From contig OZ024740.1 of NCBI GenBank assembly GCA_964016885.1, positions 365,862,001 through 365,926,000 on the forward strand: a stretch of 64,000 bases of DNA, given 5' to 3'. The stretch is from Eledone cirrhosa. Taxonomy: Eukaryota. A model generated the notes under the pieces. It had not been told where the DNA came from. It did not search any database and worked only from the letters and a program-made list of their open reading frames with translations. Each line of letters opens with the position of its first letter. Positions within the stretch are counted from its first letter, which is position 1. Of this stretch, positions 1,094-62,988 are shown in pieces. Both the position numbers and the translations under genes were made by a program.

Positions 1094-1358
1094 TATATAT
1101 ATAGGAAATGGTAATTTAAACATGTGCTTTGATATCTTCTTCACTACCTCTTACGTTATGTTGACAAGATGTGTCCCCAGCTGGTCAGTAGTTTAGCAAC
1201 AACTATCTACCCATATGTCTATCTAGCTTTGGACAATAAAAAAAATCTAACTACATACCTATGTGTCTACCTGTCTCTCTATCTGTCTCTCTGTCAATAT
1301 TTCATTCTCTCTGCCTGTCTCTCACTCTTCCGTTATAACTGTTTGTTTATCTATCTAT

Positions 1359-2025
1359 CATCCTTCCAAGAGGACGTGTCCAAGATGCGCGCAGGACATT
1401 GAAACAGTCCTGCACGCAATTGTACACTGCCCGGGCGTAACCGACCTGTAGAACTACGCAGAACAACTGCTGTCGCGTATGTGACAAATCCACTTGACTG
1501 CCGAGTCCATAGTAAGGATCAAACCGCCAGCCTCTTTCAAAAACGAAAGAGAGCCGGTTTTCCTCTGTACGTGGCTATGGTGAAAGAAGTTATATGGTGG
1601 ACGAGATTGAGACGACTGAGGACAGATGCCTTTCTCTCCGAACAACAATTGATTCCCTTCTTTAAGTATCACTTTAGAAGGAGAATCGGGGTGGAGAGAG
1701 AGGCACTGCACCCCAGTAAATTTACTGAAAGGTGGGTGAATGAAGCGAAAATGTCCCGAGTGATTGGGCTTTCTCTGTTTATAAGCCTGTAGGTTGAGGA
1801 AGAGAGCAAAAGGAAGAAAGGAGCACTTTCACAACACGCTCCTGGAGTTGAGGGTTGTTCTATCGACGGGGTATTAAACAACCCATTTGTGGCGCCTCCC
1901 CCCTATTGGGCATTTCGATTGTTGTAATTGTTTGTTTTTATATTTTTTACACGACTGTATGTAAAATCCCCGGCATGTCTTTGTATTGTCCCCTTTTCTT
2001 GTGCGCCCTTGTGGCTAATAAAGAA
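1359..2025 (+). mobile_element. Tx1/L1-clade LINE 3' fragment (decayed), copy 1
   Basis: Encodes TCPRCAQDIETVLHAIVHCP (zf-RVT-type CCHC) and EVIWWTR; has stops and frameshifts; ends AATAAAGAAA followed by tatctatct. Confidence 0.75.
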
Positions 2026-2038
2026 ATATATCTATCTA

Positions 2039-2935
2039 GAGACTCCACTTCGACATTCTATAGAGGGTTAGTACGTCACAAGAGCGACGACGTGCACAGA
2101 GAGACTCTAGGCGTCGAAGACGACGAACTCACCAGTCTGTTTGGTAGGACTTTCCGCCCGGGACCTATGGACAACTTCCAGAGGTCCCTGGCCTGTCAGT
2201 GTTACCGAGGAGCTCAACTAGTTCGAGACAAGATCTACAGGCACGGATGCCCCGTCAGGGATCCTTCCAAGAGGACGTGTCCAAGATGCGAGCAGGACAT
2301 TGAAACCGTCTTGCACGCAATTGTACACTGCCCGGGCGTAACCGATCTGTGGAACTACGCAGAACAACTGCTGTCGCGTATGGGACAAATTTAGTTGACT
2401 GCCGAGTCCATAGTAAGGATCAAACCGCCAACTTCTTTCAAAAACGAAAGAGAGGCGGTTTTCCTCTGTATAGTGGCTATGGTGAAAGAGGTTATATGGT
2501 GGACGAGATTGAGACGACTGAGGACAGATGCCTTTCTCTCCGGACAACAACTCATTCCCTTCTTTATGTACCACTTTAGAAGGAGAATCAGAGTGGAGAG
2601 AGAGGCACTGCACCCCAGTAAATTTACTGAAAGGTGGGTGAATGTAGCAAAAATGGCCCGAGTGATTGGGCCTTCTCTGTATATAAACCTATAGGTTGAA
2701 GAAGAGAGCAAAAGGAAGAAAGGAGCACTTGCACAACACGCCCCTGAAGTTGAGGGTTGTTCTATTTATTCTATCTATTGTATTAAACAACCCATTTGTG
2801 CCCCCCCTCCCTATTGGGGATTTCGATTTTAAAATTTGTTTGTTTCAATATTTTTACACGATGGTATGTAAAACCCCTGGCATATGTCTCTGTTTTGTCC
2901 CCTTTTCTTGTGCGCCATTGTGGCAAATAAAGAAA
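2039..2935 (+). mobile_element. Tx1/L1-clade LINE 3' fragment, copy 2 (longer)
   Basis: ORFs 1855..2394 and 2395..2694 join across one TAG (CAC in copy 1); CPRCEQDIETVLHAIVHC...IWWTR...FTERW; ends AATAAAGAAA+(TCTA)n. Confidence 0.8.
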
Positions 2936-3287
2936 TCTATCTATCTAGAATAAATAAATAAATAAATAAATAAATAAACAAATAAATAAATAAATAAATA
3001 TATCTATCTAGATGTGTATTTACCAATGTATCGATCTTCGGTCAAGAACAAAATTAACAACAAACCCCACCAGCAGTCTGAAGATAGATAGAACGAAGTC
3101 ATCATAATTTAGTGGATATATGTTTAATAAAGATTATAGAAAATATGGAAGAAAATTATTGTAACTAATTTATCAACGTAAAATGAAATACAACAATGGC
3201 CGGAGTAACAACATGGTTAAGAATAATCGATGATTCAAGGATCTTTACAGACAATGTTTTTACTATAAACCCCTTCGTTTTATATAA

Positions 3288-15979: not shown

Positions 15980-16720
15980 TTTTTAGTTTCATGGATTTTG
16001 TTCCTCCTCTTTTGGACAGCAGAGAATCTCATATGATGAGAGGTTACAGGGTTATATCAAATTTGATTCCAATGTATAAAAAGAGGCAGGACTGTTGGCA
16101 ACTCTCTCTCAGAGTAAAACCTGCTGATGATACCTAGTAAATTAGCCAAGTACTCAACAGATACCAAGACTAAATAATCATCATCATAATCATCATCATC
16201 ATCATCAGGAATGCTCAGCATTTAAATGAGTGTATTTATTATTCTATTTTTTATTTATTCTAAAAAGCAAATTTGTTAAAGAACAAAATATTTGTGCTTT
16301 CTATTATTTAGGCATCTTTCAGTTTCTTTTCTTTTTGTTATTGATATATTTAATATTTATGTATGTCTATGAAAATGTATGTATGTGTATGTAAAGGACA
16401 GATCTGCAGATGGATTAGATTAAATGTTCTGAATGAAGAGAATAAGAGAAGAGGAAGGCGCGATGAAAAAAAGGAGGATTCATGCAGAGACGATGGAACA
16501 AACACTGTCAATGATGTCAATAATTATAATAATAGTAATAATAATAATGATTAATAATAATAAAATATAGAAATGATGTCTGTGTATTTCAGTGCATCAT
16601 GCACAGTGATTGTTGTTTCGTTAAATTTTCTTCTCTTTTTCTCAGTCAAATTGTTCTGGGTATAGTTATATTCAGTGAACTGTAAGTTGGTGGGAGAGGA
16701 AAGTTGGTAGAGGGGAAGTT
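8995..16720 (-). other. Putative long 3' UTR of the catenin gene
   Basis: No further coding exons seen; U-rich on the minus strand; AATAAA (plus-strand tttatt 9009-9014) followed downstream by a U-tract (plus-strand A-run ~8954-8980). More proximal AATAAA sites exist, so the end is uncertain. Confidence 0.35.
11380..11835 (+). mobile_element. CR1 LINE 3' fragment
   Basis: LGMDTLKLRRLATDL...TRGH...RKHFFTLRVAEAWNKLP, 3' UTR and (ATT)n tail. Confidence 0.85.
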
Positions 16721-16888
16721 TCACACCCAGGAGTCAGCATTTCCAGGATTTTCAAAATGAAAATCTGCATTATTGTGTGTTGGGCCATTGGGATTTTCCT
16801 GGGCATGTCTTGCTGAAGATTTGTTTACTTGTGCATATAGTGGTTCACCATTGGAGTTAACCAGATTCAGTGACACAGGTTGAGATTC
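16721..16888 (-). CDS. CTNND2: p120/delta-catenin family protein, terminal coding exon ending in PDZ ligand DSWV
   Basis: tatttctttttcag|GAATCT...TGGGTG TGA; ESQPVSLNLVNSNGEPLYAQVNK...PGNADSWV*; DSWV is the C-terminus of delta-catenin, p0071/PKP4 and ARVCF. Confidence 0.9.
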   Translation of the reverse strand, partial: ESQPVSLNLVNSNGEPLYAQVNKSSARHAQENPNGPTHNNADFHFENPGNADSWV

Positions 16889-17468
16889 CTGAAAAAGAAA
16901 TAAGGTTGTTTTATTTATAGAGATAGATATGGCAAAATGTGGTAGACAACTCATTCTGTCAGTTTAGCTAATGGGATTGCAAAGGGGAATAAGTCATGTG
17001 GCTTCAAAAATTAAAACAAAGATTTTGGTAGTGGCTCAGCAACTTATGCAGCAAATTAGCAGAGTGATCGTTAGAATGTCGGACAAAATGCTCTGCAGTT
17101 TTTGTTGTGGCTTTCTGCTATGGTCAACTTTGCCTTTTATTCTTTCAATGCCAACATAAAAAAACTACCAGCCCAGTACTGAAGTAGATTCTTCCTCTAT
17201 ATCTCTTTCTCCCTATCACTTTATCTCTCTGAAAGAAATCGGTTGTGTACAGACCTAGAGTTGGACAGGCTCTGCCAGGTTTAAAATGTCCAGGAAATGC
17301 CCATATGTTACTACAGCCTCCCTACTACTCCACCAGGAGTTACAGGTTCATACATACATACTACAGTTTATTAAGTGTTATGAGATATTTTAGACACAGA
17401 CACTAGAAAATACTCTGTAATCCTTAATGTGTCGCAGAATTATCCCCAAAGAACATATTCCTAGATTT

Positions 17469-17540
17469 ATAGGGTAAAAATGAGGTATATGTATAGGGTA
17501 AAAATGAAGTACATGTATAGGGTAAAAATGAAGTACATGT
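17469..17540. repeat. 3 x 24-bp tandem repeat
   Basis: Units ATAGGGTAAAAATGA(G/A)GTA(T/C)ATGT. Confidence 0.8.
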
Positions 17541-17589
17541 AAATATATCAATTCCTGTAAAAATATATGTACAGATATTTAATGTTGAT

Positions 17590-18066
17590 AATAATGGAAA
17601 TTATTGTGTGCAGTGCTTAGGTACACTACAACTCATCAAAGGTGCATGTAAGTATATAGAATAATGTAGAAATGTCAGGAAAGTGAACAGTGTATGAGTC
17701 ATGATATACATACAGACACATACACATGCATGTGAGTGTGTGTATGGAGAGGGAATATCAGGGAATATGGTCATGGAGGTGTCACAACAAAAAGTGCTTA
17801 GCCCACACTGTAAAGTGGTCGTGTTGATGACATGACAAAAAGCACCCAGCCAAACTGTAAAGTGGTCATGTAGGTGTCATGACAAAAATCACCCAGTACA
17901 CACTGTAAATGTGGTTGGTGTTAGGAAGGGCATCCAGCCATAGAAACCAAGCCAGAACCAGTTCTGTATGAACAAGACCCAGTCACCTGATCTGACTTGT
18001 CTCAATGAGATAACTCATGTCAGCCATGCTAGCATGAAAAAATGGACATTAAACAGTGATGATGAT
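17590..18066. mobile_element. CR1 3' fragment (minus, ~17590-17760) next to an RTE/SINE tail fragment (plus, ~17770-18066)
   Basis: Matches the CR1 3' UTR and the RTE 3' UTR at 60900-61178, including the (GAT)n tail. Confidence 0.6.
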
Positions 18067-18628
18067 TAGAAACATTATTACAGTAATATTTTTACCATTA
18101 GAAACAATATTGGAGTTTTCTTACACATTGCCATAAATTACATCAACTACTACTGATATTTAATTTCCAAACTCTAACATCGCCCATCTTGCTAACACTA
18201 CTAAACCATGCTAAACCCCAAAACAACTTATTGGAGACGGTTATTCTATTCTGTTAAATAGACAACCACAGAAATTGAGAAGCAGGAATAATTGTTTCTG
18301 ATTTAGGCACAAGGCCAGCAGTTTGAAGGGAAGGGAAAAGTTGATTAAATTGACCCAGTACATAACTGGTACTTATTTTATCGACCCCGCAAGGATGAAA
18401 GGCAAAGCTAATCATGGCAGGATTTGAACTTAGAATATAAAGGGTCATAACTATGCAGTAAAGCATATTTTCCAAAGCAGGAATAATAATGGCTTGCTCT
18501 TTCTATGGTTGGTTGCTTGGATAATTTTACACACCATTGTGAACACGATACATTGAAAAATGCTTAGTTAGTAAATTAACACAAGTTTTGAAAATGAAAT
18601 ATATGAAAGTTATTTTCTCAATACTTAC

Positions 18629-18730
18629 AAGACCAGATGTTAGCGCAGAAGAATTTGGTAATTTAGAATGACCCCTCTGATCACTCAAGCTTTGATAGCC
18701 AGGTCCCATGTCATTTAAAGGTATTGAATC
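18629..18730 (-). CDS. CTNND2: p120/delta-catenin family protein, penultimate exon
   Basis: tcttctattcccag|GATTCA...GGTCTT|gtaagt; 102 nt, phase 0->0; DSIPLNDMGPGYQSLSDQRGHSKLPNSSALTSGL resembles ARVCF DVIPMDALGPDGYSTVD (recalled). Confidence 0.85.
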
Positions 18731-24896: not shown

Positions 24897-26108
24897 CTAG
24901 GGCAGGTAAAATTCCCGAGATCCATGGATGAGTTCTCTCCAGCGGTCTCTGTCCCTCATTATCGCTGCCATGTCATGCGTCTCCAACAGACCAGTGTCTG
25001 TCCTTAGGGCATCAACATACGTTAACCTTGGTCTTCCGCTTCCAGTGTGTCCATGCAGGGGCTCCCACAGGAGCACTGAGTGCAGTGTCAACTCTGGATG
25101 TCGGTGAGCATGTCCAGCTAACCTCAGTCTACTCTGTGTCACTTTTGAGCTGACTTTTGGGAGGCTCCCATACAGCTCTGAGTTTTTCATCCTCAGTGTA
25201 TACTGATTAATGTTCAGAGCCATCCTCAGCATTCTCGTGTAGCACCCATCCACCATCTGAGTGAGTTTCTTGGTCAGTGTCCAAGTCTCAGACCCGTACA
25301 GCAGCACAGACTCCACTACAGCAATGAAGAGGCGGATCTTCACAAAGGTCCGACTTCCACACCGATCTCAAACTGTGGCACGCTGACCAGGCTTTGCTCT
25401 TCCTCTCAACCACATCATCTTCCGTATTCTCAATCTTTGCTCCCAAATACAGGAAGCGTCAACTAATTCCAGTGGCTTCTCACCTACATTAGTAATCCCC
25501 TCTGGCTTCTCAACATTCTCTACCAGACATTTTGTCTTAGTCTCATTCATTCTCAGCCCCACACTCATCGACACAGTCTCAACTTCCTGCATCAAATCCT
25601 CTGCCTCCTTCACTGTATTTGTCACCAAACCTATGTCGTCGGCAAATTCAGCATCCAATATCTTTTTCACCTTAGCTCTCCTGCTCTGAGCCGGTGTTAC
25701 AGTAAAGCCAGAGTCCTGGTGTTTCTCCAGTGCAAGGCGCATACCATAGTCCACTACGATGATAAAAAGGTAGGGAGCCAATGTATCTCCCTGGAGCACT
25801 CCAGCCAGTATCTCAAAGAACTCTGTCATCCCATCAGGTGTAATGACTTGGGCTTTGGTGTTGGTGTAGAGCAGTGATATCAGGTCCACTATCTTCTTGG
25901 GGATTCCATAAGCCTGTAAGATCTTCATCAGGCAGTGACGGTCCACAGAATTAAAGGCCTTCCTAAAGTCAATGAAAACCATGACCGCAGGAAGGCACTT
26001 TGCTCTAGCTCCCTCTAATATCCTCCTCAGCATTAGGATGTAACTGGTGGTTGATCTTCCCTCTCTGAAGCCGTTCTGGTTGTCCCTGAGCTTCTCCATC
26101 TCGGGCTG
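24897..26108 (-). mobile_element. RTE/RTE-X-type LINE reverse transcriptase 3' fragment nested in the MULE
   Basis: NQNGFREGRSTT, FIDFRKAFNSV, GVLQGDTLAPYLF, FADD, LLYGSETW, RLRLAGH, GRPRLTY; frameshifted near 25430; flanked by GAATAT direct repeat (24891-24896 / 26109-26114). Confidence 0.9.
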
Positions 26109-26723
26109 GAATATGGCATTCTTTAAATCAATTGATATTGATAATGGCACACATGTTGGCTCTAACTTTTCTCTTGTAAAAGTGTTATATACGTTTCTTC
26201 AGATTTGTTGGGTAATAAAGCAAAGACAAGCAGTAGTGAAGATTTGTCTTTTAATCCATGCAGGATATACAGCTGAACAGCTTTAAACATTGTCACCATA
26301 TCAATGTTCATGTTATGGTGAACATTGCATATTGCATCATGTTGCAAACATTACTAAACACTTTTCAACTGATCCACAATTTATCACCTTTAAATGTTGT
26401 GGTAAATTCATGGGGAAAATTAGGTCACTACAATTTGAAAGTAATGGCTGGTCCAGCACTACTTTGTTCTTGGATAGATGACATTCTTTTAATGCTTTGC
26501 ATCCTTGGAAGTTTTGGAGCAACAGCTTAGCTGTAATTTTCCATTGCACTAGATGTTATTGAATAAGGTGCAGCTTTTGAAGATTTTGCAAGGTGCCGGA
26601 TTTGTGCCAATGTCTTTGTAGCTACAACTTCTGCGACATCTAAAATGCCATTGTATTCAATCACAAATTTCACAATTGGATTGTTAACAGTAGTTATGTT
26701 ATTATAGCACTTCGTTTTATAAT

Positions 26724-33211: not shown

Positions 33212-33755
33212 AAAAATTAATAACTCACAATTAAATAAGGATAAATGATTCTTTTTTTTAAACATTAAAAAAATATATATATATCCAGGGAAGATGTTTA
33301 AATAAATTGACATGCGATATAGGAGACAGTTGTAGAGGAAGAAGAGGAAACTAACAGGGTGGTCTTTAGTTTAGACTGAGAAAAAACATTGGAACTCAAC
33401 CTATTAACCCTTTAAGTAGTTACTAATATATTTTAGATTTCATTGAAACATTGTTTTGGTAGGAACATGTTGATATACATCCAATTTATCCCTTAAACAA
33501 ATTGCATCATTTCATATACCTCATGCATATGAGAGAAACAGCAGTCTATATTTTTTTCCTCATAAAAAAAAAAGAGAAAGAAATGTCCGTTTTCAATGTA
33601 CACTTCTTTTGCTGGAAATTGAAATGTATGGCTAACCAACTCATGACAGCTGGTGCATTTAAAGGGTTAATAAGCAAGACGGGCAGTATGGTTCTACATA
33701 TAAAGATAACGAAGAACGCAACAAGATTAAAGACCATGCAAGTCTGGGAGTAATG

Positions 33756-33960: not shown

Positions 33961-33977
33961 CGACTTTTCTTTCTGAT
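33961..33977 (-). CDS. CTNND2: Predicted 17-nt microexon of the catenin gene (DQKEKS)
   Basis: ttgattttcttctag|ATCAGAAAGAAAAGTCG|gtaagg; strong sites at both ends; phase 1->0, exactly what is needed to join exon 59507-59748 to exon 18629-18730. Confidence 0.6.
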
Positions 33978-35249
33978 CTAGAAGAAAATCAACAGAGAAT
34001 GACAGCAATACTGTTAAATCTGGCAACAATGGAAAGTGAATGAGGTGAGAAGTATTCACACACACACATACGCAATTTACAGTCAACTAAGGGCCACTGG
34101 AAAAACTATCCATGCCAAAGTTTGTGGAAAAGGATGGGAGAAGCAGAAGAAATAATTAAAATTAAGCTGAACTATAACATTGAAATAACATCTTTAAGTA
34201 AGAAAATCCAGTTTCAAAGTTTTTAAAGGTAGTTAATAGTTTTTAAACTGAACAGTGGTGATGAAGATGAGGGTGAATATATAATAATAATTGTTTCTAC
34301 TTTTGGCACAAGGCCAGCAATTATCCCAGTGCATTACTGGTACTTTATTTTATCGACCCCGTAAGGACGAAAGGCAAAGTTAACCTCGGCGGGATTTGAA
34401 TGACTAATAATAATAATAGTGACAATGAAACAGCAATAGGGCAATTTTGTAAAGGAAAGGGTTAATTCAAAATGGTGCTGACACTTTTTTTTTAAATCTC
34501 AGGGAAGGGAGGAGGGAGTGAAACTGATCCTCTCCAAATTCAAACTCACAAATGTAAGAAAAGATAATGACAAATACTATAAAAATGAAAGATATAATAA
34601 TGTGGGTACAACAAAACATGGTTCATCACCTAACCATTTGTGTCAACATTATCATCACTGGAAGAAGATAATTGCAACAACAACAAACAACAATAATAAT
34701 AATAAAAATAATAATAATGATAATAATGTTACTTTTATTAATGGTTAATAAAGTATCATGAGTAAAGAATGATTGGTGATATTAAACTTATGCTCAATGT
34801 TTCAACTGGTATATTCTTCAATGATCTTCAGGTGCCGTATTTTGATAGCTGGTTTGCATTGCAGCTCAAAGGCTTTCAACATATTTATCCAATAGGTTGA
34901 GAGATGCAGTCGTCAGTATTTATAAAGTATTGGACTACTTTTAGAAGTTTTCATGTTTCAAATCACAACATTGCTACAGTAGTGTATCCATACTCAAAGA
35001 CACTCAACTATCACTGACTGAGCCTAGCTTGCTATAAATAGAATCAGTAGAGGACTAGAGCTTATAGATGTAAGTGATGGTAGCACTTTATAGCTGATCT
35101 CTTGTATTAGCATAAGATCATATACTTTTAGAAATGAGTAGCACCAACTAAATGAAAGACAATGTATAACGGGTATTTATTTCTGGCACAGACAGAATTT
35201 AAAATCAGAATGTCAGGAGATGTATTTAATCTAGCGCTTTACTAATAGT

Positions 35250-43861: not shown

Positions 43862-44379
<518 letters not shown>

Positions 44380-44530
44380 ATATTTAAAAGATGATAATTG
44401 ATTACAGCTGAAATATTTTTTCTTGTTATACTCCCTTAAAATTTAATTTAGATCAACTCACCCTTTCATTACTGCAATGGATCTCTGAAAGACAAAAATT
44501 GAAAAAGCTAGAATTAGTAATACAAATAAT

Positions 44531-49515: not shown

Positions 49516-52500
49516 TAATAATAATAATAATGAAATTATTGTGTACAGTGCTCAGGTGCACTACAAATCGTCAAAGGTGCATGTATAGTACATAGAATAA
49601 TATACAAATGTCAGGGAAGTGAATAGTGTACGAGTCATGATATACATGTGTGCGTGTGTATGGAGGGGGAATATTAGGTGTAGTGTTGGCGAATCTCGGG
49701 AAGCATGGAGGTTTTAAAGGATGCAGTGTCTCGATAGCTAATAACTGATGAAGGTAATTTGTTCCATGCTTCAGCAACTCTGAGCGTGAAAAAATGTTTC
49801 CGAAAGTTATGGGAGCTGTGCTGTTTTCTGACTTTGTGGGCATGCCCACGTGTGTTAGACACATGGAAATCAAAAAGGTACTCAGGGTTGTTGTTGGCAA
49901 GATGGTTAATAATATTTTGTGGGTGTTTACCAAGTCAGTTGCCAGACGTCGGAGCTTCAATGTATCCATGCTCAGGGAAGCAAGGCGTTCAGAGTATGGT
50001 AGATGCCTGATGGAGGGTAATTGCTTGGTTACACGTCTCTGAACAGTTTCCAGGTGGTCAATGTTCTGAACAAGGTAGGGGTTCCAGACTGGTGATGTAA
50101 ATTCTAACTAAGTGTGGCCGCACCATAGCTATATACAGCTTTAGATAGATAGCTGGAGAGCGGCTGACAAAGGTCTGGCTGAGTGATGCTAAGACACCCT
50201 CGGCCTTCTTGACAATTTTAGAGATCTGCTTCGTCCAACGCAAATCGCTGCTGACCGTAATGCCCAGGTCACGTTCACAAGAAGACTTCTTGATATTAGT
50301 GTTGTGGAGGGAGTATGTAGATGCTGGGTTTTTACTTCCAAAATGCATAGTGGTACACTTGTCCACAGCTAGCTTGAGTTGCCAGTCTGTGATCCATTGT
50401 TGCATTGTGTCCAGGTCAGATTGCAGGCAAGATCTATTGTGTTCAGGATCTATCCTTTTTATCTCAAGGTACAGCTTGATGTCATCTGCATATTTCAGTG
50501 CTGTGGCATTCTTTAAGTTAGCATCTATGTCATTAATATATGCCACAGACAAAAGGGGGCCAAGAACAGATCCCTGTGGTACACCATATGACATCTCATA
50601 TGGTGAGAAATGCTGTCCTAGAACCGTGACTACCTCTCTTCAACTGAAGGACTTCAACCAGTTAAAAAGATCATCCTTCACACCCATTGCAGAGAGTTTT
50701 GCCATAAGTTTTTTGTGAGGCACAGAATTGAAAGCTTTAGCAAAGTCAAGGTAAACAACATCCACCCATGAGCCACCATCAGTGATCCGGGTAATGCCTT
50801 CAAGAAACTCGATAAGTTGATCACAGCAGCTGGAGTCAGGGATAAATCCAAATTGCAAGAGCCGGATAAGACAGAGTTCCAGAAGTTCCAAAGCGTTTCT
50901 CTGACATAGGATTCCATCAGTTTGGCAATGCAGCTAGTAAGACTGAATGGATGATAGTTCACAGGTGATGTGCAGTCACCCTTTTTGAACAGAGGAATGA
51001 CACTGGCAGTTTTCCACTGTTCTGGAGTAGCACCGTTGTTCAGACAGAATTGAAAGAAACGTGATAGCTGGTGCAGAAGGAAGTACCCACCATGTTTAAG
51101 ACGCAGGTACGTAACACCATCAAGACCAGGAGAGGCATGGTTGTGTTTAATTTTAAGGTGATGTTGCAGCATTGCAGGTGTAAATTCCATAGTTGTAATA
51201 GAATCCGATGTCAGAGGTGGTGGAGACGGTACACTCTGGTCTTCAATAGTGAAAATGCCTGCATAGTATTCAGCAATGAGCTCTATGCATTCCTTGGGGT
51301 CATCAGTAACCTGGCTTGTGTGGGGATTGTGAAGAGGACCAACTGGAGAGTGAAGCCTCTGCTTTGAGTGAACATATTTCCAGAACACCTTACTGTTAGG
51401 GCTGGTTGCTATGCATTGCTCAAATTGAAGCACTGCCTTTTTTGTCACCTGTTTGAGATGGTTGGATGATTTATTTCGCCTCTTCCTATTGATGTCTGAT
51501 TTATGCAGTTTGTACTCATGTTCAGCATTACAATGTTCTTTTCTGGCAAGATGGACTGCTGCAGTCTCCCAAATTGCACTTTTGGGATGTTTTTTCTGCT
51601 TACGTGGCACCGATGCTGCACATGCTGTCCATATTGAGCTCAGGATGTTCTGGAGTAGTGTTGACATCTCCAAAGTCGTAGAACTCAAGCCAGTTTGGAC
51701 GTTGCAACTCAGTGCAGTAACAATTCCAGTCTGCTTTATTCCAGTCAAAGTGAGCAGTTTGGAGATGGTTGTGGTTTTTGTTACTGCCCATGAGGGATAG
51801 ATTGGCAATGATCATAGCATGATCAGAGTCACCTAAAGGTTCCTCAGCAGTAACACTAATGACCGTTTCAGGAGTACTGGTGAAGAGTAGGTTCAAAGTG
51901 TTGTCACTTCTTGTTGGGGAGGTGACTACTTGGGACCAGTTCGATTCCAGCACTAGCTCAAGGAAATCATTTGCACTTGGCTGCCAATGAAAGCTTTCCC
52001 AGTCAATCTCAGAGTGATTGAAGTCCCCTGCAATAAAAACATAAGTGGCTGTTTTCCTGGCAGCAACTCTGAGGATATCACAAAGTTGAGTGTCCTGATG
52101 GTAATTTGGGGGACGGTAAACGACTCCAAGTAGCAGTGTTGACATGGTCATATGTATATCGCAGAAAAATACTTCCTGCTGTGATTGGTTCAAATCAACA
52201 CAAGAAATTGCTGAAAAATTTGACCGAACATAGACCATTAGACCACCACCACCACCACAACGATTAATGCGATCTTTACAAAACAAGTTGTAGCCAGTTA
52301 TGCTGAAAACCCCATCACAGAATAAGGAATGTGCCCATGTTTCCGTGACTGTAATGAAGTCAGGGTTGATACTTTTGACGTAGGAGTCAAAAAGATGAAT
52401 CTTATTGCATAGACTACGTGCATTCAAGGACAACAATTTGTACCTTGATTCCAGTCTATGATTATGTGCAGGGGATGGCAGGTTGTTCTGATTTAGTTTC

Positions 52501-53470
52501 CCAGAGATTTTTCAGTTTTTTTATTGTCAGTTGTTGTGAGTACAGTGTTTTCAGACCAACTGGTATTTCTTTTCCATGTTTCACTATCCTTAATAAACTT
52601 CCATATCTGTCCATCATCATGTAGGCTGAAGCTTTCATGTTCTGCCGAGCTGCGGTTTAAGGAAGCTGCAGCACGCAGCTTTGGGCAGACATCAGGTGGA
52701 AGACCAAGGCGTGTTCGGAAGGCAATCCGACTTTCACGCCTAGCTTTATCAGAGGCCAAAAGATATGAATGTGCCTCAGTTGAGTTCAAAAAAGTCTAAT
52801 TCGCCTCGATTTCGGACCTGGTCGACCAAGGCGTAGAGCACCCTTCGGCACATTGAAGGCAAACAGAAACACGACATTTGCCACATTCAACCCATCGATT
52901 TCGGAAGGAGTTCTCTGGTACATAGATGACAGACGTGATTTTCTGGGTAATATTCTATTTTGGAAGATCGCCCAGTTTTGTTGCACACTTCATCCATGGA
53001 TGTCACAATAGCTATTTTATCCTGTCTGTCCATCCGTACAGTAGAACAAGATGTAAATGTAAACAAATAAATATGCTGCATAAGTTTAGCACATTTGTTA
53101 ATGAGATAAATGTTTGTTTATGTTTTGTTTTTGTATTTCTGTTTTCCTATGTGTTGTGTGTGTGTGTATGCAAAAAGATCTGCACACGAATATATAATTA
53201 TATATATATAATTAAAAGGTGTATATGGGTTAGAAGCGAAGTCAGTGTTCAGAAAGATTTTACAAATGTATGTAAGATTGGCTGGTATAGTGTCTCACAC
53301 GAAACAGTGTGGTTTCTTTTCACTTGTGTGTATATGTGTGCGCGGTATGTATCTATATATAAATCTGTGTGTATATTGTTGTTTATAGATTTTGTGAAGT
53401 ACTTACTGCGATCCCTAAGGGATGTAGTGAAGTACTTACTGCGTTCCCTAAGGGATGTAGTGATTTACTC
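49516..53470 (-). mobile_element. Near full-length decayed CR1-clade LINE (ORF1 remnant, APE endonuclease, reverse transcriptase)
   Basis: Endonuclease motifs SLNARSL, TETW, GVVYRPP, GDFN, SDH (51600-52436); RT motifs PGLDG, VIPLFKKG, QFGF, YLDFAKAF, GVPQGSVLGPLL, YADD; several frameshifts; (ATT)n tail at ~49516. 5' limit approximate. Confidence 0.92.
53394..53463. repeat. 33-bp tandem duplication at the CR1 5' end, with internal palindrome
   Basis: GTGAAGTACTTACTGCG(A/T)TCCCTAAGGGATGTA twice; ATCCCT-A-AGGGAT palindrome. Confidence 0.8.
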
Positions 53471-55603
53471 CCCCCTCCCTCTGTTCATGTCCACACGTGG
53501 TTTTTTGGCAAACATCAAATATACTTTGTTAAAATAATTTTATGTTGAAGCTGGTACTCGTAGTCAGGGAACAGTCAAAGTATTTGTAATAATGAATATT
53601 GTATCCATCTGACGTGTTAAAAGGGCAGTTTTGGGTGAAAATATATTTTGTTTGGGAAGACGTGGACAAATGTCCTTCCTTGTCGCCATTTTGTTTATTA
53701 TTATTATCATCATCATTATCAGGAATGCTCAGCATTTAAATGAGTGTGTATGTGTGTGTAAAAGTAAATATGTGAACCAAAACAAATGTATATCCCATGC
53801 ATGTATACATAGCTGCAAATGTGTATGTGTGTGTGTGTACATATAAACAAGGAATGTGTATGCGAGATATATTAAGAATATGTAAGTGATATAGAACGTG
53901 TGCTTATCTGTTTGCTGATGTGAGAATTTCAACAGACATTATTATCGTAATTTTTTTGTTTTGTTTTCATGTGTGGAGATGCATGGCCTAGTGGTAAGGG
54001 TGTTGGACTTACAATCATAATGTCGTGGGTTTGATTCCTGTGCTGGCTTGTGTTTTGTGTTCTTGAGCCAAACACTTCATTTTGCTCCAGTATACTCAGC
54101 TGAAAATGAGTACTAGCAATAGCTGGGGATTTAACCCTGCGATGGACTGGTGCATGTAAAATATTTCTGGTCAACTGAAATTATTAAAATTGTGTGTGTG
54201 TGAGAATGTATGAATTTTTATTACTGTTCACTCATGTATAGATTTAGCTGGCTTCTTTCAGTTGTTTTACTGATAGAAGCTCTAGTCTTATCAGGAAAAG
54301 ACTGTCTACTGAACTGGTACTAATTTTTTGCCTGTTGTGTGGATTAGAGAAACATGAAATAAGGTGTCTTGCTGAAGGACACAATGTATTGCATAGTCCT
54401 GGGATTGAGTCCGACACCTTAACCACTAGGCATGTCTGCATCAATCTCTGAATCCAATTTTCTTGATAGAAATGTGTGGAACACCCAAGAACAAGTAGAA
54501 AAAAAAAGCCTGATTATATTATTGAATAAGTATGAATGATCAATTTTGAAAAAAAAGTGACTATATTTTGGTATCTGATTTAACACTATATACTTAAACA
54601 TAAGAGCAATGGTGTCAGTTGTAGTAGTAGCAATAATGATCTTCACTTGGCACAATAGATATTTTTATATAAGGGAAAGTTTATAACTGTTTGAACTGAC
54701 TATGAAGAATTTTATATATATCAGGAAGGTAAAAAGCAAAAGCCATCCTTGACAGAATTTAAATTCAGTGTAAAAGAATGTAATACAATACTGTAAAGCA
54801 TTTCAGTCGAGTACTGTTTTATTATAATAATGATGATAGTACCTACTTCTTTTTATTGGTTACAAGGACCAAAGACAAAATAAAAAAAAAAAGTGTGGGC
54901 AGCAAATTGAAATTGAGAAGTAAGGCAAGAAGAAAAATAATAAAGCCACAAATATCAATCAACAAAAGGATCCTCAAAGTGGAGACAACCACAAATGGAA
55001 ATTTGGAGACACTTCACAGACAAAAAGCAAAAGCCTTCTCCCAGCACCAACTGCTCTACTGATAACTTTTTCTAAAGTGTAATGAAGTTGATGAAGGTTT
55101 AACCTACAAGGAAAAACTTTTTCCTTAAGAACCTTTCAACTGCACCCAGAATAATTATAATAACATTGTATTTCAAGTCCCAAACAAACTTCACTAAACT
55201 ACCACTTGGTAGGAATATTGGCAGGATTTTAGCAAATGAATTTGCTTCAAAGCAAATGTTGAATGAGACAACCATGGGCTTTATTTTAAATGTTTTTTTT
55301 TTTTTTTTTTTATATTATTGATGTCACACAGTAAGCAAACATTCTTTTGGCAAAAAACTCACCGTTGAAATATCTATGAGAAATGCTTCCCCTTGTCACT
55401 AGAATACAAAAGATAAAATGCAAAGGAAAAATAGATCTATACTGTAGCTAAAGAAAGCTCACAAGTTCTTTACACCTTAACAAATATCCACTGAAGATAG
55501 TTTAGAAATAAAAAAAATATATATATGTAACTGAAAAAATTATTCATTAACAATGACATATCCATAAATATCTATCCATCCATATGTGTATGTATGTATG
55601 ATG

Positions 55604-59260: not shown

Positions 59261-59506
59261 ACATACTTATATAGACAGAAACAGCATTAAGATAGTGCAT
59301 AAAGATGGATAGAATAAGAAGGTATAAAAAAAAAACCCCAAAAGAAAGATAATTGTTTCTACTTTTGGCACAAGGCCAGCAATTACCCAGTACATTACTG
59401 GTACTTTATTTTATCGACCCCATAAGAAAGATAATAAAGATCAACTGATAACTAAACAACAAAACACTACAACAAAAAGGATGAATTCAGAGATGTCATG
59501 CATTAC

Positions 59507-59748
59507 CTGATCCAGCACTGCCACCACCACCACTGCCATTTTCACAGATACTGCCTTTTGGCAGCCAACCCATACTGGTATCTTCTCGTGGAGGATAAGT
59601 GCCAGGAACATTGTTCTTTGTTAATGGCCGAGTTGGTGACAATGTACTATCATCATAACCTTGACCAGAAACTGGACGATTCAGCGTGCTTGTTGGCGTG
59701 TTGTTGCCAATTTTATTATTCGAATTTGTTTTCTCCATTTTTCTGGTC
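59507..59748 (-). CDS. CTNND2: p120/delta-catenin family protein, C-terminal tail exon
   Basis: attcatttttcag|GACCAG...GGATCAG|gtaatg; 242 nt, phase 2->1; contains STLNRPVSGQGYDDSTL (YDDSTL in p120, FDDSTL in ARVCF). Overlaps ORF 59496..59738. Internal phase-1 donors (e.g. ACCA|gtatgg) are possible. Confidence 0.85.
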
Positions 59749-61775: not shown

Positions 61776-61873
61776 CTGAAGGTTGAAGTTTTTGTAACAA
61801 AATCAGTTTCTGTATATCCCTGTTTTCTATATTCTCCACTAAGCTCTTTAAACTGCCACATAGTGTGAAGCGC
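61776..61873 (-). CDS. CTNND2: p120/delta-catenin family protein, exon at end of ARM domain
   Basis: ttttctttttcaag|GCGCTT...TTCAG|gtctcc; 98 nt, phase 0->2; ALHTMWQFKELSGEYRKQGYTETDFVTKTSTF(R) matches the conserved LxxxWxxKELxxxxxKxGWxxxDF helix after the ARM repeats; phases fit both neighbours. Donor is weak. Confidence 0.9.
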
Positions 61874-62894: not shown

Positions 62895-62988
62895 CATGGC
62901 TGAATATCTGACTGTTTTTTCTAGAAAAGCACCCTCGGATTGGGTTATCGATACTAAACGGCTGACACCACCTTCTGATAATAGCGAG
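62895..62988 (-). CDS. CTNND2: p120/delta-catenin family armadillo protein, internal exon (last ARM repeat); gene continues upstream beyond the window
   Basis: Minus strand tctactttcag|CTCGCTA...GCCATG|gtaagc; 94 nt, phase 2->0; translates SLLSEGGVSRLVSITQSEGAFLEKTVRYSAM, resembling the last ARM repeat of p120-catenins (human p120 LRETQGIEKLVLINKSGNRSEKEVRAAAL, recalled). Symbol is family-level, not a proven one-to-one orthologue. Confidence 0.9.

What the first reader, a model, noticed from the sequence alone, without database searches (positions are those of the whole stretch)
33961..33977. 17-nt frame-restoring microexon controls the catenin EPLYA/PDZ tail
Seen: flanking exons end in phase 1 (59507) and start in phase 0 (18730), 40.8 kb apart, so something must bridge them. 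This 17-mer has strong splice sites and gives ...GSDQKEKSDSIPLNDMGPGY. A UGC lies upstream of the pyrimidine tract (gtattgctgtc) and TGCATG motifs lie downstream (33735-33740, 33522-33527); another TGCATG sits directly in the upstream donor (59497-59502). Skipping gives GFNTFK* with the stop 82 nt before the last junction. Known: UGC is bound by SRRM3/4-type eMIC factors and UGCAUG by RBFOX. Inference: a possibly neural splicing switch that decides between a DSWV-bearing protein and a truncated or NMD-targeted one.
Basis: partly seen in the sequence, partly recalled or inferred. Interest (0 to 1): 0.75.

Follow-up and report, generated by a model that had tools for sequence, protein, structure and literature searches.

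The report
Frame-breaking microexon clips octopus delta-catenin tail
A 17-base optional exon in an octopus delta-catenin gene does not restore the reading frame (an overlooked 23-base exon does that); when included it shifts the frame and is predicted to cut off the protein's conserved PDZ-binding tail or send the mRNA to decay.

Summary
The 40.8-kb gap holds two missed microexons: A (55363-55398, 36 nt) and B (44462-44484, 23 nt). B is the frame bridge. The organism's own spliced RNA contig joins upstream exon, B and the downstream exon, skipping the 17-mer. All 22 of 22 full-length cephalopod homologues carry B or its 23-nt homologue; 0 of 22 carry the proposed DQKEKS form. B plus the 17-mer gives ...IRKKSRIQYL*, letter for letter the end of two Octopus bimaculoides RefSeq predicted isoforms. 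Only one site in the window can encode that peptide (chance about 5e-6). Inclusion therefore swaps the last 89 residues (IPLNDMGPGY, EPLYA, DSWV) for 10, with the stop 86 nt before the last junction. Whether this ends in decay or a tail-less catenin is open. Neural (eMIC/RBFOX) control is untested and the motif support is weak. No own-species read including the 17-mer was seen. New member of a known kind (non-triplet cassette microexon).

The parts
62895..62988 (-). Coding exon, end of armadillo domain (94 nt)
   Evidence: tblastn to O. bimaculoides protein; boundaries
61776..61873 (-). Coding exon, end of armadillo domain (98 nt; AAG acceptor)
59507..59748 (-). Exon U (242 nt; ...GYDDSTL...GSAGS), ends in phase 1
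   Evidence: its last 8 nt are in the RNA contig's loose end
59497..59502 (-). TGCATG at +5..+10 of the U donor (RBFOX-type motif, recalled; function untested)
55363..55398 (-).
   Evidence: homologous peptide in 4 of 22 cephalopod proteins, all O. bimaculoides; skipped in own RNA contig
44462..44484 (-).
   Evidence: in own spliced RNA contig; B or its 23-nt homologue in 22 of 22 cephalopod proteins
34013..34017 (-). Branch-point-like TTAAC, 40 nt upstream of the 17-mer (predicted)
34005..34007 (-). UGC between the branch-point-like site and the AG (eMIC-type position; function untested)
   Evidence: 54 of 181 decoy acceptors have one too
33961..33977 (-). Microexon C, the 17-nt exon: frame-breaking when spliced after B (IRKKSR...)
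   Evidence: B+C+D translation equals the C-terminus of P0015/P0016 (XP_014787128.1, XP_014787129.1); only site in the window able to encode it; one DNA match in own genome; skipped in own RNA contig
33735..33740 (-). TGCATG 221 nt downstream of C (function untested)
33522..33527 (-). TGCATG 434 nt downstream of C (function untested)
18629..18730 (-). Exon D, penultimate, 102 nt (DSIPLNDMGPGY...)
18715..18717 (-). TAA reached in the shifted frame when B and C are both included; 86 nt before the last junction
16200..16888 (-). Last exon E: EPLYA (16846-16832), DSWV (16735-16724), stop 16723-16721, 3' UTR to at least 16200 (AATAAA at 16259 and 16240)

Best explanation
The 17-nt exon is a conserved optional microexon that, spliced in after the 23-nt bridging exon B, shifts the frame and is predicted to remove the last 89 residues of the octopod delta-catenin (IPLNDMGPGY, EPLYA and the PDZ ligand DSWV), most likely silencing the tailed protein through nonsense-mediated decay. 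Shown: the default mRNA is U-B-D-E (own RNA contig); U-B-C-D translates to ...EIHCSNER-IRKKSRIQYL*; the identical ending is annotated in O. bimaculoides. Inferred: that C is included in this species too; that the weak acceptor keeps it off by default and a regulator switches it on; that the stop 86 nt before the last junction triggers decay (about 55:45 against a stable tail-less catenin with an intact armadillo domain). Untested: tissue specificity and eMIC/RBFOX control.
For: Own spliced contig (run X4, 4030 nt, depth 29.8) joins U, B, D and D, E (equality checked). B or its homologue is in 22 of 22 full-length cephalopod proteins, C alone in 0 of 22, B+C in 2 of 22. In-silico U-B-C-D and U-A-B-C-D reproduce the tails of P0016 and P0015 (one I/M difference inside A). 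One site on both strands of 64 kb can encode IRKKS-R, exactly 33977; expected 1.7e-3 in the 25.7-kb B-D intron, 4.6e-6 with AG..GT; distance 0, rank 1 of 1263 AG sites. The match is 10 of 10 residues, while exon D is 24 of 34 identical between the two species (read off), which suggests constraint (inference). B has constitutive-grade sites (11.3/8.3 bits); C and A have weak acceptors (4.4, 6.8) and a UGC, against 1 of 20 for the other exons including B (hand arithmetic 3/231, about 0.013, post hoc). The lost tail is old: 43 of 150 family representatives end in DSWV and 14 of 150 have EP[LIV]Y[AS]. In C. elegans, 436 NMD-sensitive against 136 alternative-C-terminus and 54 dual-coding non-triplet events (PMC13247117, section 7).
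Against: No read or contig of this species includes C: one contig of one run, tissue unknown, covered exon D at 95% likeness; contigs drop rare variants. Support for inclusion is two predicted isoforms from one annotation of one species, and they are not independent. The newer O. bimaculoides isoforms X1-X3, the O. sinensis isoforms X1-X4 and the Argonauta and Logan proteins do not show it. That RefSeq X isoforms rest on RNA-seq junctions is recalled, not checked here. The 50-55-nt junction rule is recalled from mammals; I found no test of it in molluscs. No DNA of another cephalopod could be aligned, so splice-site and motif conservation is untested.
Confidence: 0.74

Rival explanations
1. 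B and C are a mutually exclusive pair. Both are phase 1-0, so exactly one gives the full tail; some tissue swaps EIHCSNER for DQKEKS and decay removes the double-inclusion and double-skip products. This keeps the first reader's in-frame product as a minor isoform.
For: U-C-D and U-A-C-D are open to DSWV. The lengths 23 and 17 are both 2 mod 3. The B+C models could be leak-through products.
Against: 0 of 22 cephalopod proteins and 0 of 236 fetched proteins contain QKEKS. The only annotated use of C is together with B. B and C are 10.5 kb apart, so no steric exclusion; B has strong sites, no UGC, and is kept in the more distant homologues.
Confidence: 0.14
2. C is a cryptic, low-level exon (splicing noise) that an annotation pipeline picked up once; it is retained passively and has no regulatory role.
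For: Weak acceptor, rank 39 of 310 candidates; absent from own contig and from later annotations in the cluster list; motif evidence near background.
Against: Same peptide, same order of exons and intact AG/GT in two octopods whose neighbouring tail exons differ by about 30% of residues and by indels. No multi-copy DNA match for the 251 nt around it (this search skips very common words).
Confidence: 0.1
3. One reading: C is the only frame bridge and skipping it truncates the protein.
For: U-C-D is in frame.
Against: Own RNA contig reaches exon D through B without C and is full length; 22 of 22 homologues use B.
Confidence: 0.01

Closest known systems
Non-triplet cassette exons: poison exons and alternative-C-terminal-length isoforms (Athavudeen, Issac, Norris 2026, PMC13247117; e.g. 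dhhc-4, tnt-3 microexon)
   Same: Inclusion of a short non-3n exon near the 3' end moves the stop; dhhc-4 loses its last 52 residues and varies across neuron types (passages).
   Different: Those cases have measured inclusion and NMD status in C. elegans and human. Here neither is measured, and the exon follows a second, apparently constitutive non-3n microexon that could in principle be swapped for it.
eMIC (SRRM3/4, Srrm234)-dependent neural microexons (10.1101/2021.02.24.432780; 10.1101/2024.09.17.613571)
   Same: Very short exon, weak 3' splice region, UGC between branch point and AG, 31-nt AG-free zone.
   Different: Typical targets preserve the frame (recalled); this one breaks it. No expression or perturbation data; UGC is neither necessary nor rare here (30% of decoys).
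p120-catenin subfamily (delta-catenin/CTNND2, ARVCF, p0071; p120/CTNND1)
   Same: Armadillo core (PF00514; best PDB hit p120 3L6X, E 3e-121) and C-terminal PDZ ligand; one locus in this genome (a floor), as for other invertebrates (PMC3013132 passages).
   Different: Vertebrates obtained a PDZ-less member (p120) after duplication (PMC3013132). Here a PDZ-less form would come from the single gene by splicing. The delta-catenin splice variant described in PMC9289679 is a 25-residue armadillo insert, not a tail switch.

Membership tests
p120/delta-catenin subfamily (host gene) | Central armadillo repeat domain closest to p120-family proteins | tested here: met
   Orthologue P0006: PF00514 E 2.5e-34, p120 structure best hit; 19 exon matches at one locus, 69-98% identity
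p120/delta-catenin subfamily (host gene) | C-terminal PDZ ligand (DSWV) | tested here: met
   16735-16724 followed by stop; 43 of 150 representatives end in DSWV. Binding itself not tested.
Frame-restoring (essential) microexon | Full-length mRNA needs this exon to keep the frame | tested here: not met
   Own RNA contig is in frame through B without C
Non-triplet alternative cassette microexon | Length under about 30 nt, not a multiple of 3, canonical AG/GT | tested here: met
   17 nt
Non-triplet alternative cassette microexon | Both skipped and included forms exist | tested here: inconclusive
   Skipped form shown in own RNA contig; included form only as two predicted O. bimaculoides isoforms
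Poison exon (AS-NMD) | Inclusion creates a stop more than 50-55 nt before the last junction (rule recalled) | tested here: met
   86 nt
Poison exon (AS-NMD) | Included form is stabilised when NMD is blocked | not testable with these tools
   Needs UPF1/SMG1 knockdown or cycloheximide RNA-seq
eMIC-dependent neural microexon | UGC between branch point and AG, weak 3' splice region | tested here: inconclusive
   Present, but 54 of 181 decoy acceptors also have TGC; branch point only predicted
eMIC-dependent neural microexon | Neural-specific inclusion that depends on the eMIC domain | not testable with these tools
   No tissue-labelled or raw-read RNA run was listed; PF15230 search of own genome rang nowhere, controls included, so it is uninformative
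Mutually exclusive exon pair (B/C) | Each exon occurs without the other and never together | tested here: not met
   C appears only together with B (2 of 22), never alone (0 of 22); small, annotation-based sample

The most novel reading that the evidence does not exclude
Octopods make a p120-like, PDZ-less catenin from their single delta-catenin gene by regulated (possibly neural, eMIC-driven) inclusion of one 17-nt microexon: the mRNA escapes decay and the protein keeps its armadillo domain but trades the EPLYA/DSWV tail for a short basic end (RKKSR, resembling a recalled nuclear-localisation consensus). That would reach by splicing what vertebrates reached by gene duplication, inside a three-microexon cluster in which B and C act as a frame either/or gate.
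Probability: 0.2. Interest if true: 0.68.

Novelty: new member of a known kind. Interest (0 to 1): 0.42.

Why it matters
In vertebrate neurons the delta-catenin PDZ ligand chooses partners (Erbin, Magi1, Pdlim5) that set dendrite length and branching (PMC9289679 passages), and loss of that ligand is proposed as a key step in p120 evolution (PMC3013132 passages). A conserved 17-nt exon that removes the ligand from the single cephalopod gene gives a one-RT-PCR handle on how a large invertebrate nervous system might tune this catenin, and a test case for frame-breaking microexons and junction-dependent decay in molluscs. If it only feeds decay it is an ordinary poison exon. The practical correction matters either way: the gene model needs the 23-nt and 36-nt exons, and the 17-mer is not part of the full-length coding sequence.

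Tried and rejected
The look-up of sequencing runs listed no holder on record as RNA; run X4 turned out to be spliced when laid. Absence of a C-containing contig in X4 is not taken as absence of the isoform (contigs drop rare variants). One search (90% likeness) showed depth 54.9 on exon D against 29.8 at 95%; the extra record was not listed, is probably a short imperfect match, and was not used. A metagenome scan for the 21-nt AG-exon-GT word gave 3 loci whose flanks match at chance level (12-22 of 60 nt): unrelated, dropped. The O. sinensis X3 tail (P0005) and the P0014 insert have no convincing match in the window; an acceptor at 34019 ranked 1 of 1263 for the first 11 residues (distance 11 against 12 for the next) but 7 of 1263 for all 16, so it was rejected. 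The PF15230 search was uninformative. Conservation of the shifted-frame IQYL* needs only five wobble bases in an AT-rich gene, so it was not counted as evidence for a selected protein. Three look-ups of earlier findings returned nothing. No structure or complex was predicted: the affected region is a low-complexity tail and no partner sequence was at hand.

Full report
Host gene. The window holds the 3' end of a minus-strand gene of the p120/delta-catenin family. The upstream exon hits Octopus and Argonauta ARVCF/delta-2-like proteins at 89-92% identity. The O. bimaculoides protein P0006 matches 19 stretches at one locus spanning at least 213 kb of the own genome (a stricter first look was used, so this is a floor), has Pfam Arm repeats and p120 catenin as best solved relative. 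The organism is an octopod by inference from these identities; it differs from the named species in the tail.

Observation. The splice sites are not both strong. With a matrix from this gene's own 19 acceptors and 18 donors, the donor is average (8.4 bits) and the acceptor (4.4) is below every training site. The 17-mer ranks 39 of 310 candidate microexons in the interval.

What was missed. Homologous proteins read GSAGS-(VTRGSMSHRYFN)-EIHCSNER-DSIPLNDMG. Both inserts are in the window as AG/GT-bounded exons: A, 36 nt at 55398-55363, and B, 23 nt at 44484-44462. B converts phase 1 to phase 0. Of 22 full-length cephalopod proteins that span the junction (15 Octopus, 1 Argonauta, 6 unnamed Logan proteins about 75% identical, probably squid or cuttlefish by inference), 22 carry B or its homologue, 4 carry A, and none carries DQKEKS (four read-through fragments left out). 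Those fragments show that the distant homologue of B is also 23 nt. None of the 236 proteins fetched contains QKEKS.

Own RNA. None of four listed runs was on record as RNA, but X4 holds a 4030-nt record that joins 16888 to 18629. Its loose end beyond 18731 equals the last 8 nt of U plus B. The assembled mRNA of this species is therefore U-B-D-E, full length, without A and without the 17-mer. This is one contig from one run of unknown tissue; it shows presence of that form, not absence of others.

Is the 17-mer real? Two O. bimaculoides predicted isoforms (XP_014787128.1 and XP_014787129.1; P0015, P0016) end in EIHCSNER-IRKKSRIQYL. Translating U-B-C-D and U-A-B-C-D from the window gives that same end and stop. 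On both strands of the 64 kb only position 33977 can encode IRKKS-R; the expectation in the B-D intron is 1.7e-3, or 4.6e-6 with flanking AG and GT, and it is the only zero-distance site among 1263 AG positions. Limits: both models come from one annotation; newer isoform sets in the same cluster lack it; that such models rest on RNA-seq junctions is recalled.

How it most likely works. Of eight combinations of A, B and C, the four with exactly one of B or C reach DSWV; neither gives GFNTFK* (stop 82 nt before the last junction) and both give IRKKSRIQYL* (86 nt). With B as the default, C is an off-switch for the tail: 89 residues are replaced by 10. The lost part holds three conserved motifs. 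Gastropod, bivalve and nemertean homologues keep IP(L/M)xD-like, EPLYA-like and DSWV motifs, and 43 of 150 family representatives end in DSWV. EPLYA is an Abl substrate and Csk-binding motif in p140Cap (PMC3561454, search listing only); its role here is untested. The armadillo domain is untouched. The stop meets the recalled 50-55-nt rule, and NMD-sensitive events outnumber alternative-C-terminus events 436 to 136 in C. elegans (PMC13247117, abstract, passages and section 7), so I lean to decay (about 55:45). Tail-less predicted isoforms recur by other routes in O. sinensis (P0005) and Biomphalaria (P0063), which keeps the stable-protein reading open.

Regulation. C has a branch-point-like site at -40, UGC at -30 and a weak acceptor; A has UGC at -24; B has none, and 1 of 19 training acceptors has one in that range. 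This resembles eMIC targets (passages of 10.1101/2021.02.24.432780, its journal version PMC8797185, and 10.1101/2024.09.17.613571), but 54 of 181 decoys also have TGC, and two TGCATG within 450 nt occur in 2.8% of intron windows, chosen after the fact. Neural control is a lead, not a result. If true, neurons would be removing the PDZ ligand that vertebrate neurons need for dendrite shaping (PMC9289679, passages), which would be surprising.

Literature. Searches for microexon+octopus(+eMIC), ARVCF or delta-catenin with PDZ and splicing, cephalopod with NMD or poison exon, and octopus with delta-catenin listed no paper on this exon; the library lacks most subscription papers. 10.64898/2026.09.05.749416 (passages) covers O. 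bimaculoides tissue splicing; its supplements were not seen and may list the exon. PMC3013132 (passages) gives the frame for the novel case: one delta-like gene with a PDZ ligand in invertebrates, PDZ loss in vertebrate p120.

Verdict. Observation partly confirmed; interpretation partly supported with inverted sign. A conserved frame-breaking microexon in a three-microexon cluster; new member of a known kind; interest 0.42.

Noticed in passing
window 55363-55398 (-): Microexon A: 36-nt frame-preserving cassette with UGC at -24 and a weak acceptor, conserved with O. bimaculoides (11 of 12 residues); a better candidate for a classical neural microexon than the 17-mer.
   Followed up: partly
window 43863-44378: (CGTG)x129 microsatellite of 516 bp beginning 84 nt downstream of the exon B donor.
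   Followed up: no
L012 (G000:C1:366020050-366020800): Exon with a weak donor whose read-through (RSNIYH...) matches the start of an insert in Argonauta P0002 of about 60 residues; O. sinensis and O. bimaculoides isoforms also differ by 60 residues in length. Likely an alternative 5' splice site extension in the N-terminal region.
   Followed up: no
window 24900-26200 and 49570-52510 (-): Broken reverse-transcriptase/endonuclease reading frames (LINE-like remnants, class recalled from motifs) inside the U-D introns.
   Followed up: no
window 33961-34019 (-): A second AG at 34020-34021 shares C's donor (59-nt form, score 13.6); after B it would stop at once, and in phase 1 it is stop-free. Weak, non-significant likeness to the O. 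sinensis X3 tail.
   Followed up: partly
window 61873 (-): Acceptor is AAG, the only non-CAG site among 19 training acceptors.
   Followed up: no
P0005, P0063: Other predicted mollusc isoforms also lose EPLYA and DSWV by different 3' splicing (O. sinensis X3 right after B; Biomphalaria X5 after the PGY motif).
   Followed up: no
window 1350-2950: Two similar copies of an unidentified element with matching reading frames (around 1350-2000 and 2220-2950), downstream of the gene.
   Followed up: no
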